64,000 bases of DNA from Escherichia phage TH12, in the sequence record MT446390.1, one strand, 5' to 3'. Below the pieces are notes generated by a model, which ran no database searches, was not told the DNA's origin, and saw only the letters and a program-made list of their open reading frames with translations. Shown here one piece after another: positions 59,712-63,066 of this stretch (position 1 is the first letter of the stretch; each line of letters starts with the position of its first letter). The position numbers were made by a program, and so were the translations under genes.

Positions 59712-61525
59712 AAATTGAAAAAGAAATTGAAGGATTAATTTATAAAACTAATAAAGATCTTTTGAACGAGAATGCTAATAAAGATTCTCGTGTTTTTCCA
59801 ACTCAACGGGACCTTATGGCTGGTATTGTGTCTAAGCACATTGCCAAAAATATGGTCCCGTCTTTTATTATGAATGCGCATGAAAGCGGAATCATTCATA
59901 TGCATGATATTGATTATTCTCCTGCTCTTCCGTTTACTAATTGTTGTTTAGTCGATTTAAAGGGGATGCTTGAGAATGGATTTAAATTAGGCAATGCTCA
60001 AATTGAAACGCCTAAATCGATTGGTGTTGCTACTGCAATTATGGCACAAATTACTGCACAAGTTGCTTCCCATCAGTATGGCGGAACTACATTTGCGAAT
60101 GTCGATAAAGTTCTTTCTCCTTATGTTAAACGTACATACGCTAAACATGTTGAAGATGCAGAAAAATGGCAAATACCAGACATTCTGAATTATGCTCAAT
60201 CTAAAACAGAAAAAGACGTATACGATGCATTCCAAGCTTATGAATATGAGGTAAATACTCTTTTTAGTTCAAACGGTCAAACGCCTTTTGTAACAATTAC
60301 ATTTGGTACTGGAACTGATTGGACCGAACGAATGATTCAGAAAGCAATTCTGAAAAATCGGATTAAAGGTCTCGGTCGTGATGGAATAACTCCTATTTTT
60401 CCTAAACTTGTTATGTTTGTTGAAGAAGGTGTTAATCTTTATAAAGATGATCCGAACTATGATATTAAACAACTTGCGTTAGAATGTGCAAGCAAAAGAA
60501 TGTATCCTGACATTATTTCGGTTAAGAATAATAAAGCTATTACTGGTTCTTCAGTTCCAGTTTCTCCAATGGGTTGCCGTAGTTTCTTGAGTGTATGGAA
60601 AGATTCGACTGGTAATGAAATTCTTGATGGACGTAATAATCTCGGTGTTGTAACACTGAATCTTCCTCGCATCGCGTTAGATTCTTATATTGGAACACAG
60701 TTCAATGAACAGAAATTTGTTGAGCTATTTAATGAACGAATGGATCTGTGCTTTGAAGCCTTGATGTGTAGAATTAGTTCCTTAAAAGGAGTTAAAGCGA
60801 CTGTTGCTCCTATTCTTTACCAAGAAGGTGCATTCGGGGTTCGTCTTAAACCTGATGACGACATAATTGAGTTATTTAAAAACGGTAGAAGTTCAGTGTC
60901 TTTAGGATACATTGGTATTCACGAATTGAATATTCTTGTCGGACGTGATATTGGACAAGAAATTTTAACTAAAATGAATGCTCATCTTAAACAGTGGACC
61001 GAAAGAACTGGATTTGCTTTTAGCTTATATTCTACTCCTGCTGAAAACCTTTGTTATCGCTTCTGTAAACTTGATACAGAAAAATATGGAAGTGTAAAAG
61101 ATGTCACTGATAAAGGCTGGTACACTAACAGTTTCCATGTTTCAGTAGAAGAAAATATTACTCCGTTTGAAAAGATTTCTCGTGAAGCCCCATATCATTT
61201 CATTGCGACAGGCGGTCACATTTCTTATGTTGAACTTCCTGATATGAAAAATAACCTAAAAGGTCTTGAGGCTGTATGGGATTATGCTGCACAACATTTA
61301 GATTATTTTGGTGTTAATATGCCAGTAGATAAATGTTTTACATGTGGAAGTACTCATGAAATGACTCCTACTGAAAATGGATTTGTTTGTTCAGTTTGCG
61401 GAGAAACTGATCCTAAAAAGATGAACACTATAAGAAGGACCTGCGGTTATTTGGGAAATCCGAACGAGCGCGGATTTAATCTAGGCAAAAATAAAGAAAT
61501 CATGCATAGGGTTAAACACCAATGA
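59708..61525 (+). CDS. nrdD: anaerobic ribonucleoside-triphosphate reductase NrdD
   Basis: 605 aa; C-terminal Zn-ribbon and glycyl-radical region (CFTCGSTHEM...CSVCGE...RRTCGYLGNP); uninterrupted, no intron. Confidence 0.95.
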   Translation: MKIEKEIEGLIYKTNKDLLNENANKDSRVFPTQRDLMAGIVSKHIAKNMVPSFIMNAHESGIIHMHDIDYSPALPFTNCCLVDLKGMLENGFKLGNAQIETPKSIGVATAIMAQITAQVASHQYGGTTFANVDKVLSPYVKRTYAKHVEDAEKWQIPDILNYAQSKTEKDVYDAFQAYEYEVNTLFSSNGQTPFVTITFGTGTDWTERMIQKAILKNRIKGLGRDGITPIFPKLVMFVEEGVNLYKDDPNYDIKQLALECASKRMYPDIISVKNNKAITGSSVPVSPMGCRSFLSVWKDSTGNEILDGRNNLGVVTLNLPRIALDSYIGTQFNEQKFVELFNERMDLCFEALMCRISSLKGVKATVAPILYQEGAFGVRLKPDDDIIELFKNGRSSVSLGYIGIHELNILVGRDIGQEILTKMNAHLKQWTERTGFAFSLYSTPAENLCYRFCKLDTEKYGSVKDVTDKGWYTNSFHVSVEENITPFEKISREAPYHFIATGGHISYVELPDMKNNLKGLEAVWDYAAQHLDYFGVNMPVDKCFTCGSTHEMTPTENGFVCSVCGETDPKKMNTIRRTCGYLGNPNERGFNLGKNKEIMHRVKHQ

Positions 61526-61992
61526 ATTATGATAGATTTTATCCTTGCGATTTTGTGAATGGTCCTGGTTGTAGGGTCGTTCTTTTCGTTACGGGGTGTT
61601 TGCATAAATGCGAAGGGTGTTATAATAAATCAACATGGAATGCTAGAAATGGTATTCCATTCACTGGTGAAACACTAGAACAATTAATTGAATGTTTGAA
61701 TAATTATTATATAGAAGGATTAACTATAACCGGAGGAGACCCTCTCTATCCTGATAACCGAGATGTTATTCATTACATTGTTCAAACAGTAAAAAATCTT
61801 TATCCCAATAAAAGCATTTGGTTGTGGACAGGATATAAGTTTGAAGATATTAAACAGCTAGAAATGCTTAAATATGTTGATGTTATTATTGATGGGAAGT
61901 ATGAGAAAAATCTTCCGACCAAAAAGCTGTGGCGAGGATCAGATAATCAGCGACTTTGGTCAAATACCGATGGGGTGTGGAAACATGATTAA
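61522..61992 (+). CDS. nrdG: anaerobic RNR activating protein NrdG (radical SAM)
   Basis: 156 aa; radical-SAM Cys cluster CLHKCEGCYNK. Confidence 0.9.
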   Translation: MNYDRFYPCDFVNGPGCRVVLFVTGCLHKCEGCYNKSTWNARNGIPFTGETLEQLIECLNNYYIEGLTITGGDPLYPDNRDVIHYIVQTVKNLYPNKSIWLWTGYKFEDIKQLEMLKYVDVIIDGKYEKNLPTKKLWRGSDNQRLWSNTDGVWKHD

Positions 61993-62103
61993 ATTGAATT
62001 ACATTATGGATACTATAAATGATATGATTTTTCATTTTGGTCCAGAATTTTATTCGCAATATGGTTTGCTTATCAATGCTTGGTTAATTAATTAAGGGTA
62101 AAT

Positions 62104-62319
62104 ATGTATAAATTTCGTAAAGGTTTAGCTGATTTTCTTACAACTGTAACGTTCTTTTTGTTTATGGCAGTTGGAGCTATTTTTCTTATTCCTTTTACTG
62201 GTGTATTTTTCGTGATTAGTTTAATTTCTCCAGAAAAGGGCTTATCTTCTAATGAGTTCAATGAGCGTCTGGATAAAATTACTAACAAACTGAATTCTGT
62301 TCTTGATAAAAAGGCTTAA
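62104..62319 (+). CDS. small membrane protein
   Basis: 71 aa, hydrophobic core. Confidence 0.45.
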   Translation: MYKFRKGLADFLTTVTFFLFMAVGAIFLIPFTGVFFVISLISPEKGLSSNEFNERLDKITNKLNSVLDKKA

Positions 62320-62321
62320 TT

Positions 62322-62639
62322 ATGATTAGTTTTGAGCGGTATGTAGTAGAGAGTTGGAATGGGTTTGATATGTTCGGTAATGACTATTATTTTTACGAAT
62401 GTAATCTAAATCCTAGTTTTTGGGCTGGACGTGAACGAGATCTCGAAGAAATTAATGCTCGCGCCGAATTGTTAGGTGAACTGCCTACAGTTTATTTTAC
62501 ATTTGATGAATCTGGATTTGTTATCCAGGTTTATTTTCCTGAAGAAAACTCTGGTGAGGATTCTGTTAATCCTCCTTATTGGGCTTATCAAGGAATTATT
62601 TCTCGTGGAACAAAACTCGAACTTAAAGAACAAGATTGA
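62322..62639 (+). CDS. hypothetical protein
   Basis: 105 aa ORF. Confidence 0.45.
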   Translation: MISFERYVVESWNGFDMFGNDYYFYECNLNPSFWAGRERDLEEINARAELLGELPTVYFTFDESGFVIQVYFPEENSGEDSVNPPYWAYQGIISRGTKLELKEQD

Positions 62640-62928
62640 AATCTATGGCATCCCTGAAGAAGTTGGACGTTGTCCAGGATGTTATACTGTTACAAAACTT
62701 TTAAAGGAGCTCAATGCTCCTTATACATTTTATAAAGTCCTCACTAATAATGGTAAGATTGAATATGACCGTCCTTTAATCGTATCTCTTGCTAAACGTG
62801 CAGGATTCACTTCACTTAATATTCGTTATCCTGTCATATTTTTAAATGGTAAGAAACAAAAGAATATTGCAGAGTTTAAAAAGTCCTTGATTTCATTAGG
62901 ATACGACTCTGATATCATAGAAGATTGA
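62605..62928 (+). CDS. glutaredoxin/thioredoxin-like protein (CPGC motif); start uncertain, possibly non-ATG
   Basis: Reading frame contains ...IEIYGIPEEVGRCPGCYTVTKLLKEL...; no in-frame ATG after the upstream gene stop; candidate GTG at 62605. Confidence 0.4.
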   Translation: MEQNSNLKNKIEIYGIPEEVGRCPGCYTVTKLLKELNAPYTFYKVLTNNGKIEYDRPLIVSLAKRAGFTSLNIRYPVIFLNGKKQKNIAEFKKSLISLGYDSDIIED

Positions 62929-62950
62929 CCAGGTGCCGCCTGGTCTTCTT
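62926..62950 (+). terminator. terminator hairpin
   Basis: GACCAGG-tgccg-CCTGGTC followed by TTCTTT. Confidence 0.5.
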
Positions 62951-63036
62951 TATCCCATTTCTAATATAATCTATTGGAACCCTCACTTCACTATCTCCTT
63001 GTGCCCCTCTCAAATCAAAAATATTTTCATAAAACA

Positions 63037-63066
63037 GTTTACATCCTCGATAGATATGTTAAGATT
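63037..63066 (+). promoter_or_regulatory. early promoter
   Basis: GTTTAC with a weak -10 (TAAGAT) about 17 nt downstream. Confidence 0.45.

What the first reader, a model, noticed from the sequence alone, without database searches (positions are those of the whole stretch)
62605..62928. Glutaredoxin-like CPGC protein with no in-frame ATG start
Downstream of nrdG, a reading frame encodes ...IEIYGIPEEVGRCPGCYTVTKLLKELNAPY..., a thioredoxin-fold redox motif fitting an NrdH-like partner for the RNR genes. There is no ATG between the upstream gene's stop region and the motif, leaving GTG 62605 or ATT 62635 as candidate starts, or translational coupling to the overlapping upstream ORF.
Basis: seen in the sequence. 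Interest (0 to 1): 0.4.

Follow-up and report, generated by a model that had tools for sequence, protein, structure and literature searches.

The report
T-even phage nrdH, ordinary GTG start
This is the long-annotated glutaredoxin-like gene "nrdH" of T4/RB69-type phages, which starts at a conserved GTG codon behind a ribosome-binding site inside the end of the upstream gene, so the missing ATG is ordinary.

Summary
The window is an RB69-like Mosigvirus, 99% identical here to Shigella phage Shf125875. The reading frame is real. GTG 62605 to TGA 62928 encodes a 107-aa CPGC protein, 84% identical to T4 NrdH.

Public records already annotate this gene from the homologous GTG: T4 (NP_049686), RB69 (NP_861771) and Shf125875. 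The Sf21 record says "alternate start codon GTG".

Evidence for GTG 62605:
- It is the only candidate with a Shine-Dalgarno site (AAGGA, 10 nt upstream).
- An in-frame GTG behind a strong Shine-Dalgarno site recurs in six sequence types, 5, 7 or 10 codons before the conserved IEIYG strand.
- In T4, Gaprivervirus and others, an in-frame stop 2-10 codons upstream leaves GTG as the only canonical start.
- Substitutions follow the upstream ORF's frame up to 62588 and the nrdH frame from 62631.

ATT 62635 is simply the conserved Ile-11 codon. It has no Shine-Dalgarno site and is ATC, ATA or GTA elsewhere.

The protein has a glutaredoxin fold closest to T4 NrdC (1AAZ). It is not a bacterial NrdH-redoxin. 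The feature is already known and of low interest.

The parts
62605..62928 (+). nrdH coding sequence (107 aa plus TGA), a T-even phage glutaredoxin-like protein
   Evidence: 84% identical to T4 NrdH. Same coordinates as the annotated CDS in Shf125875 and the same start as in RB69. phrog_22 'thioredoxin domain' E=3.3e-15. Pfam Glutaredoxin 22.2 bits, E=1.6e-4.
62605..62607 (+). GTG initiation codon (best-supported start)
   Evidence: Homologous to the annotated GTG start of T4 nrdH. An in-frame GTG sits 5, 7 or 10 codons before IEIYG in six sequence types. In T4, RZ, L015, L024 and L047 an in-frame stop 2-10 codons upstream leaves it as the only canonical start.
62590..62594 (+). Shine-Dalgarno sequence AAGGA, 10 nt before the GTG, inside the upstream ORF
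   Evidence: Anti-SD duplex -5.4 kcal/mol, against -0.9 for ATT 62635 and +0.8 for ATG 62506. The equivalent sites give -6.1 in T4 and -8.0 to -11.9 in the other GTG-type lineages. It lies in a 42-nt block (62589-62630) with no variation among 9 Mosigvirus and Tequatrovirus loci.
62671..62682 (+). Active-site codons TGT CCA GGA TGT (Cys23-Pro-Gly-Cys26)
   Evidence: Both cysteines are invariant in 20 diverse homologues. They sit at the N-terminus of helix 24-35 of the model.
62635..62637 (+). ATT, codon for Ile-11 at the start of strand beta-1 (rejected as a start)
   Evidence: No Shine-Dalgarno site. ATC in L026 and L047; ATA, GTA or GTC in the ATG-type lineages. The model's beta-1 strand is residues 11-15.
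62506..62508 (+).
   Evidence: All 10 variable sites at 62516-62588 are nonsynonymous in the nrdH frame, and 9 of 10 are synonymous in the upstream ORF frame. No Shine-Dalgarno site. The frame is closed upstream of the GTG in T4, RZ and others.
62322..62639 (+). Upstream ORF (105 aa, phrog_2749, unknown function; RB69ORF082c homologue), overlapping nrdH by 35 nt in another frame
   Evidence: phrog_2749 E=1.6e-49 over its full length. Found in 526 phage records; next to nrdH in every locus inspected, and most listed hits also overlap the glutaredoxin annotation. Absent from T4.
62927..62955 (+). Intrinsic-terminator-like hairpin GACCAGGTGCCGCCTGGTC followed by TTCTTTATCC, overlapping the last two bases of the nrdH stop codon
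   Evidence: Terminator scan, 8-pair stem with 5 G-C pairs. T4 has a G+C-rich inverted repeat and T-run at the same place.

Best explanation
The feature is the nrdH gene of a T-even (RB69-like) phage. It is the last gene of the nrdD - nrdG - 55.8 - phrog_2749 ORF - nrdH block, and a terminator-like hairpin follows it.

Translation most likely starts at GTG 62605. The Shine-Dalgarno sequence AAGGA (62590-62594) directs it, and both signals lie inside the 3' end of the upstream ORF, which reads in another frame and stops at 62639. Ribosomes finishing the upstream ORF pass over the nrdH start site, so some translational coupling is likely (inferred).

The product is a 107-aa glutaredoxin-fold dithiol oxidoreductase with a Cys23-Pro-Gly-Cys26 active site. 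Its first ~10 residues form a poorly conserved, probably disordered tail ahead of strand beta-1 (IEIYG). That tail appears to be the by-product of placing the start signals inside the upstream gene.

Shown here: gene identity, fold, conservation of the GTG and its Shine-Dalgarno site, and the switch of selective constraint between frames. Inferred: actual use of the GTG, coupling, redox activity, and any link to the anaerobic ribonucleotide reductase.
For: Identity:
- The window is 99% identical to Shigella phage Shf125875 and 97.7% to RB69.
- The CDS coincides with annotated 'glutaredoxin/NrdH' genes that start at the same GTG.
- T4 nrdH is annotated from the homologous GTG, in the context AAGGAATAGTTGTG.
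- The Sf21 record notes 'alternate start codon GTG'.

Start codon:
- In 55 loci there are two classes. One has ATG 1-4 codons before IEIYG. The other has GTG 5, 7 or 10 codons before it, always behind a strong Shine-Dalgarno site.
- GTG-to-Ile11 distances are 15, 21 or 30 nt, so the GTG stays in frame through indels.
- In several lineages an in-frame stop 2-10 codons upstream leaves GTG as the only canonical start.
- Anti-SD pairing energy is -5.4 for GTG 62605, -0.9 for ATT and +0.8 for ATG 62506. It is -6.1 to -11.9 for the GTGs of other lineages.
- All 10 variable sites at 62516-62588 are nonsynonymous in the nrdH frame, and 9 of 10 are synonymous in the upstream ORF frame. From 62631 onward the pattern reverses.
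- Position 62631 C>T lies upstream of the ATT. It is silent in nrdH (AAC>AAT) but creates an earlier stop in the upstream ORF.
- No variation occurs at 62589-62630, as expected for a ribosome-binding site plus two overlapping frames.
- Two deletion variants at the DNA level keep the Shine-Dalgarno site and GTG intact while losing all or most of the upstream ORF: T4 and CT01. A fused protein from UFV-AREG1 suggests a third.

Fold:
- The AlphaFold model has mean pLDDT 80.9. Residues 1-7 are below 50 and beta-1 is residues 11-15.
- The best PDB fold match is T4 glutaredoxin 1AAZ, with TM 0.82 normalised to the target and rmsd 2.0 A.
- The family profile against PDB also puts 1AAZ first, E=1.8e-8.
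- 19 of 20 family members match Pfam Glutaredoxin.
Against: - No experimental N-terminus was found for any T-even NrdH in the searchable literature. Use of the GTG therefore rests on comparative inference.
- The window's AAGGA is only a moderate Shine-Dalgarno site: 17% of random 22-mers from the window pair at least as well. Its 10-nt spacing is on the long side.
- Conservation of the GTG in lineages with the upstream ORF is partly confounded by that ORF's own coding constraint (CGT GGA).
- Only one substitution (62631) speaks directly to nrdH-frame coding between the GTG and the ATT.
- In Pectobacterium phage PM2 the homologous GTG is out of frame.
- The window protein alone scores 22.2 bits on Pfam Glutaredoxin, just under the 22.9 gathering score.
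Confidence: 0.88

Rival explanations
1. Translation starts at ATT 62635. Ribosomes that terminate the upstream ORF at TGA 62637-62639 (the ATTGA overlap) would reinitiate there, giving a 97-aa protein that begins exactly at strand beta-1. This could happen alone or alongside the GTG product.
For: - The upstream ORF's stop overlaps or lies within 1-3 nt of the Ile-11 codon in the window, Sf21, RZ and JS98-like loci.
- Lineages with ATG starts begin 1-4 codons before Ile-11, often with an ATGA stop/start overlap.
- Residues 1-10 are poorly conserved, and residues 1-7 are predicted disordered.
Against: - There is no Shine-Dalgarno site (-0.9 kcal/mol).
- The codon is ATC in L026 and L047, and ATA, GTA or GTC elsewhere, so ATT is not conserved beyond encoding Ile or Val.
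- In T4 no ORF terminates at the ATT. The gp55.8 stop lies just before the GTG instead.
- AUU is a very weak initiator in E. coli (general knowledge).
- The 62631 substitution is silent in the nrdH frame upstream of the ATT.
Confidence: 0.06
2. Translation starts at the in-frame ATG 62506, giving a 140-aa protein with a 33-residue hydrophobic leader, as annotated in GenBank MZ234025.
For: - The frame is open from 62476 and ATG 62506 is in frame.
- One annotator chose it.
Against: - All 10 variable sites in 62516-62588 are nonsynonymous in this frame, and 9 of 10 are silent in the upstream ORF frame.
- There is no Shine-Dalgarno site (+0.8 kcal/mol).
- The frame is closed by a stop just upstream of the GTG in T4, RZ, L015, L024 and L047.
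- The other frame of this stretch encodes a protein matching phrog_2749 at E=1.6e-49.
Confidence: 0.01
3. The upstream ORF and nrdH are expressed as one fusion protein by ribosomal frameshifting in the overlap, as the single-frame 199-aa gene of Pectobacterium phage PM2 might suggest.
For: - In PM2 the two reading frames are fused in frame.
- The two genes are adjacent and overlap in every lineage inspected that has the upstream ORF (526 records carry that ORF).
Against: - The PM2 fusion depends on the length of an A7 homopolymer run. With A8 the usual layout returns, which fits a sequencing error or a lineage-specific mutation.
- Reading through the window overlap (62605-62639), I saw no +1 frameshift motif.
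- T4 and many other phages lack the upstream ORF entirely.
Confidence: 0.01
4. The apparent lack of an ATG is a sequencing or assembly error in this window.
For: None found.
Against: The same sequence around the start occurs in independent genomes of several genera.
Confidence: 0

Closest known systems
Bacteriophage T4 NrdH (gene nrdH, formerly 55.7; NP_049686) and RB69 NrdH (NP_861771)
   Same: - Orthologue: 84% identity to T4 NrdH and the same CPGC site.
- Same GTG start behind AAGGA.
- Same place in the nrdD-nrdG-55.8-...-nrdH-terminator-55.6 block.
   Different: - The window protein has five extra residues (SNLKN) in the N-terminal tail.
- A phrog_2749 ORF lies between 55.8 and nrdH and overlaps the nrdH start. 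T4 lacks that ORF.
- The RB69 reference carries a 2-nt deletion that truncates its annotated NrdH to 90 aa.
Bacteriophage T4 glutaredoxin ('T4 thioredoxin', NrdC; PDB 1AAZ, 1ABA)
   Same: - Closest solved structure by sequence profile (E=1.8e-8) and by fold (TM 0.82, rmsd 2.0 A).
- Same beta-1 'xVYG' strand, CxxC site at the helix N-terminus and conserved Pro loop.
   Different: - About 20% identity.
- Active site CPGC instead of CVYC.
- About 15 extra C-terminal residues (LISLGYDSDIIED) and an N-terminal tail.
- NrdC is the established reductant of the aerobic NrdAB enzyme (general knowledge). No partner has been shown for NrdH.
Bacterial NrdH-redoxin (E. coli NrdH, PDB 1H75; TIGR02194), reductant of class Ib RNR
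   Same: - A small glutaredoxin-fold CxxC protein encoded next to RNR genes.
- Shares the gene name.
   Different: - No NrdH HMM match at E<=1 and no PDB NrdH sequence hit at E<=0.01.
- 1H75 ranks only 23rd by fold, TM 0.60.
- The motif is CPGC, not C(V/M)QC, and there is no WSGFRP motif.
- It sits next to class III nrdDG, not nrdIEF.
GTG-initiated genes whose ribosome-binding site lies inside the preceding gene (ordinary overlapping-gene coupling in phage and bacterial operons)
   Same: - A Shine-Dalgarno site and a non-ATG start inside the upstream ORF.
- A short out-of-frame overlap.
   Different: The 35-nt overlap is longer than the common 1- or 4-nt overlaps. Nothing else is unusual.

Membership tests
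T-even phage NrdH (T4 NP_049686 orthologues; phrog_22) | High sequence similarity to T4 or RB69 NrdH over the full length | tested here: met
   84% identity to T4 NrdH. Same start as the RB69 nrdH CDS, in a segment 97.7% identical at the DNA level. phrog_22 E=3.3e-15.
T-even phage NrdH (T4 NP_049686 orthologues; phrog_22) | Conserved position downstream of nrdD, nrdG and 55.8, and upstream of 55.6 | tested here: met
   The window ORF order matches RB69, Shf125875 and T4. 55.8 = phrog_1930.
T-even phage NrdH (T4 NP_049686 orthologues; phrog_22) | GTG start preceded by an AAGGA-type Shine-Dalgarno site | tested here: met
Glutaredoxin / thioredoxin-fold (Pfam PF00462) | Pfam HMM score at or above the gathering threshold | tested here: inconclusive
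   The window protein scores 22.2 bits against a cut-off of 22.9, E=1.6e-4. 19 of 20 family members match at E<=0.01, best 8e-8.
Glutaredoxin / thioredoxin-fold (Pfam PF00462) | CxxC active site at the N-terminus of helix 1, after strand beta-1 | tested here: met
   C23-P-G-C26, both cysteines invariant. The model has beta-1 at 11-15 and the helix at 24-35.
Glutaredoxin / thioredoxin-fold (Pfam PF00462) | Conserved proline (cis-Pro) loop before strand beta-3 | tested here: met
   Y75-P76 is invariant in 20 homologues and aligns with the M-P of T4 NrdC. The cis conformation itself cannot be tested here.
Glutaredoxin / thioredoxin-fold (Pfam PF00462) | Overall beta-alpha-beta-alpha-beta-beta-alpha fold matching solved glutaredoxins | tested here: met
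   The top 11 Foldseek PDB hits are all glutaredoxins; 1AAZ gives TM 0.82 and rmsd 2.0 A. Model pLDDT 80.9.
Glutaredoxin / thioredoxin-fold (Pfam PF00462) | Glutathione-dependent disulfide reductase activity | not testable with these tools
   The T4 and RB69 GenBank notes say 'has glutaredoxin activity'. I found no primary data.
Bacterial NrdH-redoxin (TIGR02194) | Match to the NrdH family HMM | tested here: not met
   At E<=1, NCBIfam returned only a weak YruB-family hit (13.4 bits against a cut-off of 88.55) and no NrdH model.
Bacterial NrdH-redoxin (TIGR02194) | C(V/M)QC active site and WSGFRP motif (recalled from the NrdH literature) | tested here: not met
   The sequence has CPGC and no WSGFRP.
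Bacterial NrdH-redoxin (TIGR02194) | Genetic association with class Ib nrdI, nrdE and nrdF | tested here: not met
   The neighbours are class III nrdD and nrdG.
Bacterial NrdH-redoxin (TIGR02194) | Reduced by thioredoxin reductase and donates electrons to the RNR | not testable with these tools
   Needs biochemistry.

The most novel reading that the evidence does not exclude
NrdH is made in two N-terminal forms. One starts at the GTG. The other starts at the non-canonical AUU (62635), where ribosomes terminating the phrog_2749 ORF at the overlapping ATTGA reinitiate. This would tie NrdH output to that ORF's translation. The in-frame fusion of the two genes in phage PM2 would then reflect a real functional partnership between the phrog_2749 protein and the glutaredoxin.
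Probability: 0.05. Interest if true: 0.35.

Novelty: already known. Interest (0 to 1): 0.08.

Why it matters
It matters little for biology, because a GTG-initiated nrdH is standard annotation in T4 and RB69.

Its practical value is for annotation. GenBank records disagree on this gene's start:
- the GTG (T4, RB69, Shf125875, Sf21);
- an upstream ATG (MZ234025);
- an internal ATG that removes strand beta-1 (MN04);
- a fused 199-aa gene (PM2).

The comparative evidence here says which is right. It also shows that "NrdH" is a misleading name. The protein is a paralogue of T4 glutaredoxin NrdC, not a bacterial NrdH-redoxin. Its role beside a class III reductase remains untested, and T4-type class III enzymes use formate as reductant (general knowledge).

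Tried and rejected
- The Miller et al. 2003 T4 genome review (PMC150520) is not held, so I could not check its start-codon table.
- Literature searches for T4 nrdH found only listings as a quasi-core auxiliary gene and a transcript mention. None gave N-terminal or ribosome-profiling data. One search failed on a term that was too short.
- The search for homologous proteins returned only 18 hits for NrdH and 4 for the upstream ORF, and no further fusions among the latter. The DNA-level survey of 55 loci was more informative.
- RNA folding of 62560-62690 showed nothing special: z=+0.95, and 167 of 200 shuffles fold at least as well. I dropped the idea of a structured regulatory element at the start.
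- tblastn with the fused UFV-AREG1 protein listed only ordinary two-piece matches among its top hits, so I did not see that deletion junction at the DNA level.
- Rejected: ATG 62506 as start, ATT 62635 as sole start, programmed frameshift fusion, and sequencing error (see the rival explanations).

Full report
**What is in the sequence**

The + strand frame containing 62605-62928 reads VEQNSNLKNKIEIYGIPEEVGRCPGCYTVTKLLKELNAPY... and ends at TGA 62926-62928.
- GTG is at 62605-62607.
- ATT is at 62635-62637.
- The CPGC codons are at 62671-62682.

The upstream ORF (62322-62639, another frame) stops at TGA 62637-62639. It therefore overlaps the GTG-started gene by 35 nt.

- The frame is open from 62476 and holds an in-frame ATG at 62506.
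- Two ORFs, not none, separate the gene from nrdG (61522-61992; Fer4_12 and Radical_SAM). These are a gp55.8 homologue (62104-62319, phrog_1930) and a phrog_2749 ORF (62322-62639, E=1.6e-49).

**What the window is**

The segment is 99% identical to Shigella phage Shf125875 and 97.7% identical to RB69, both genus Mosigvirus. It matches 445 phage records at 80% identity or more.

The gene is annotated in several records:
- RB69: 'nrdH, NrdH glutaredoxin', starting at the base homologous to 62605.
- Shf125875: 'glutaredoxin, NrdH', with exactly the 324-nt CDS that corresponds to 62605-62928.
- T4: nrdH (NP_049686) is also annotated from a GTG, in the context ...AGTAAGGAATAGTTGTGAAACAAAATAAGATTGAAGTC....
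- Sf21: the record notes 'alternate start codon GTG'.

So the absence of a nearby ATG is a known, annotated property of this gene.

**Which start is used: comparative evidence**

I collected 55 loci encoding homologues, from GenBank phages and IMG/VR contigs, and listed the candidate starts upstream of the conserved IEIYG strand. They fall into two classes.
- Class A (Jiaodavirus, Gelderlandvirus, Roskildevirus, Aeromonas phages and others) has an ATG 1-4 codons before Ile-11. It often overlaps the upstream stop as ATGA.
- Class B has an in-frame GTG 5, 7 or 10 codons before Ile-11. It comprises T4/T2, the window/RB69/Sf21 type, Gaprivervirus RZ, Dhakavirus JS98-like, L015, and the group L028/L029/L034/L052.

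Three observations favour the GTG in class B:
- In T4, RZ, L015, L024 and L047 an in-frame stop lies 2-10 codons upstream of the GTG. No other canonical start lies in between, so GTG is the only canonical option there.
- The GTG-to-Ile11 distance varies (15, 21 or 30 nt) but stays a multiple of three.
- Each class B GTG has a good Shine-Dalgarno site. Anti-SD duplex energies are -5.4 kcal/mol in the window (AAGGA 62590-62594, 10 nt upstream), -6.1 in T4 and -8.0 to -11.9 elsewhere.

The other candidates pair poorly. ATT 62635 gives -0.9 and ATG 62506 gives +0.8, against a background mean of -3.2.

The Ile-11 codon is ATT in most class B loci. It is ATC in L026 and L047, and ATA, GTA or GTC in class A. 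Nothing beyond coding for Ile or Val is conserved there.

**Selection pattern**

I compared nine Mosigvirus and Tequatrovirus loci that share the upstream ORF.
- All 10 variable sites between 62516 and 62588 are nonsynonymous in the nrdH frame. Nine of the 10 are synonymous in the upstream ORF frame.
- From 62631 onward the changes are mostly synonymous in the nrdH frame.
- Positions 62589-62630 show no variation at all. This block holds the Shine-Dalgarno site, the GTG and the first eight nrdH codons, and is the region expected to carry a double constraint.
- The 62631 C>T change lies upstream of the ATT. It is silent in nrdH (AAC>AAT) and creates an earlier stop in the upstream ORF.

This rules out ATG 62506 as the start and mildly favours the GTG over the ATT.

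**Deletion variants**

- T4 lacks the phrog_2749 ORF. Its 55.8 stop is followed by TT and then the GTG, with AAGGA retained.
- Shigella phage CT01 has lost most of the ORF, fusing gp55.8 to the ORF's last ~21 codons. It keeps AAGGAATTATTTCTCGTG intact.
- A UFV-AREG1 protein (P0003) shows another junction that retains ...KELFLVEQNS.... This one was seen at the protein level only.

The Shine-Dalgarno site and GTG survive rearrangements that remove what lies upstream of them.

**The protein**

- Pfam Glutaredoxin scores 22.2 bits, just under the 22.9 gathering score. Nineteen of 20 diverse family members match it, best 8e-8.
- A profile of 20 homologues finds T4 glutaredoxin NrdC (1AAZ, 1ABA) as the best PDB sequence match, E=1.8e-8 over nearly the full length. 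Other glutaredoxins follow far behind, and no NrdH-redoxin appears at E<=0.01.
- An AlphaFold model built on a 16-sequence alignment has mean pLDDT 80.9 and pTM 0.70. Residues 1-7 are below 50, beta-1 is residues 11-15, and the CxxC sits at the start of helix 24-35.
- Foldseek against the PDB ranks 1AAZ first (TM 0.82 normalised to the target, rmsd 2.0 A). E. coli NrdH 1H75 ranks 23rd with TM 0.60.
- NCBIfam gives no NrdH (TIGR02194) match.

The protein is therefore a glutaredoxin-fold paralogue of T4 NrdC. 'NrdH' is a positional gene name, not membership of the bacterial NrdH-redoxin family.

The Met of T4 NrdC and the ATG of class A homologues both align with Lys-10 or Ile-11 of the window protein. 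Residues 1-10 are thus a lineage-specific tail.

**How it most likely works**

Ribosomes bind AAGGA and start at GTG 62605, inside the last 35 nt of the phrog_2749 ORF. Ribosomes translating that ORF pass over the site and terminate at 62639. Coupling is plausible but was not shown.

No special RNA structure surrounds the start (z=+0.95). A terminator-like hairpin at 62927-62945 with a T-rich tail ends the unit, and a promoter-like site at 63038-63065 precedes the next gene.

The product should act as a dithiol oxidoreductase. T4-type class III ribonucleotide reductase uses formate as reductant (general knowledge), so the assumed role as an NrdD or NrdG partner is unproven. Petrov et al. 2010 (PMC2993671) list nrdH among the quasi-core auxiliary metabolism genes of T4-related phages and describe it as an anaerobic RNR subunit, without supporting data.

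**Rivals**

- ATT reinitiation at the ATTGA overlap is not excluded but is poorly supported (about 6%).
- ATG 62506 is contradicted by the selection pattern and by stops in relatives (about 1%).
- A frameshift fusion is suggested only by phage PM2, where the two genes share one frame. That depends on an A7 run, and A8 would restore the normal layout. It is about 1%.
- Sequencing error is excluded by conservation.

**Verdict**

This is the known T-even nrdH gene with its known GTG start. Novelty: already known. Interest: low. The useful by-products are clearer start-site evidence for a gene that GenBank annotates inconsistently, and the point that it is NrdC-like rather than NrdH-redoxin-like.

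Noticed in passing
L033 1208-1803 (Pectobacterium phage PM2, NC_028940; also L055 358-957): The phrog_2749 homologue and nrdH lie in a single frame and are annotated as one 199-aa 'glutaredoxin'. The fusion hinges on an A7 run (gtggaaaaaaatatcctaaaATT). With A8, the GTG would be in frame 7 codons before IEIYG and the upstream ORF would stop at TAA 1 nt before the ATT, as in other lineages. This is either a homopolymer sequencing error or a genuine gene fusion.
   Followed up: partly
L001 1806-2078 (RB69 reference NC_004928), equivalent to window ~62858-62866: RB69 has a 2-nt deletion relative to the window (AAACAAAAGAATATT becomes AAACAAAGATATT). It frameshifts the 3' end, so RB69 NrdH is annotated as 90 aa instead of 107 and lacks the conserved C-terminus LISLGYDSDIIED. 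This is a possible error in the reference sequence or a real truncation.
   Followed up: partly
L056 312-575 (Shigella phage CT01, OK018184); protein P0003 (phage UFV-AREG1): Independent deletions between 55.8 and nrdH. In CT01, gp55.8 is fused to the last ~21 codons of the phrog_2749 ORF through an ATTCTGTT microhomology. In UFV-AREG1, gp55.8 is fused in frame to the extended nrdH frame, giving a 173-aa protein. With T4, which lacks the ORF altogether, this junction looks like a recombination hot spot. The CT01 and T4 DNA keeps the nrdH Shine-Dalgarno site and GTG; the UFV-AREG1 junction was seen only as protein.
   Followed up: partly
window 62322-62639: A 105-aa ORF of unknown function (phrog_2749, E=1.6e-49; RB69ORF082c) is found in 526 phage records and lies immediately upstream of nrdH, overlapping it, in every locus inspected. 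It has no Pfam or NCBIfam match. Its 3' end carries the nrdH ribosome-binding site. RB69 annotates it from a later start, as a 270-nt gene.
   Followed up: partly
window 62589-62630: A 42-nt block with no substitution among nine Mosigvirus and Tequatrovirus loci, while the flanks vary about once per 8 nt. It covers the nrdH Shine-Dalgarno site, the GTG and the region where the two frames overlap.
   Followed up: yes
L007 637-903 (phage MN04, MT129654); L003 1207-1629 (MZ234025): GenBank start-site annotations for this gene disagree. MN04 starts at an internal ATG two codons before CPGC, which deletes strand beta-1. MZ234025 starts at the equivalent of ATG 62506. Others use the GTG.
   Followed up: yes
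window 61985-62095: A small ORF (MIKLNYIMDTINDMIFHFGPEFYSQYGLLINAWLIN, 36 aa) has an ATG that overlaps the end of nrdG (ACATGATTAA). Short ORFs are annotated at a similar position in MZ234025, CT01, Klebsiella phage YP11 and Erwinia phage IT22. I did not check whether they are homologous to each other or are real genes.
   Followed up: no
window 62704-62722: A terminator-like hairpin AAGGAGCTCAATGCTCCTT lies inside the nrdH coding sequence (codons for KELNAP). It is probably a chance match within coding sequence.
   Followed up: no
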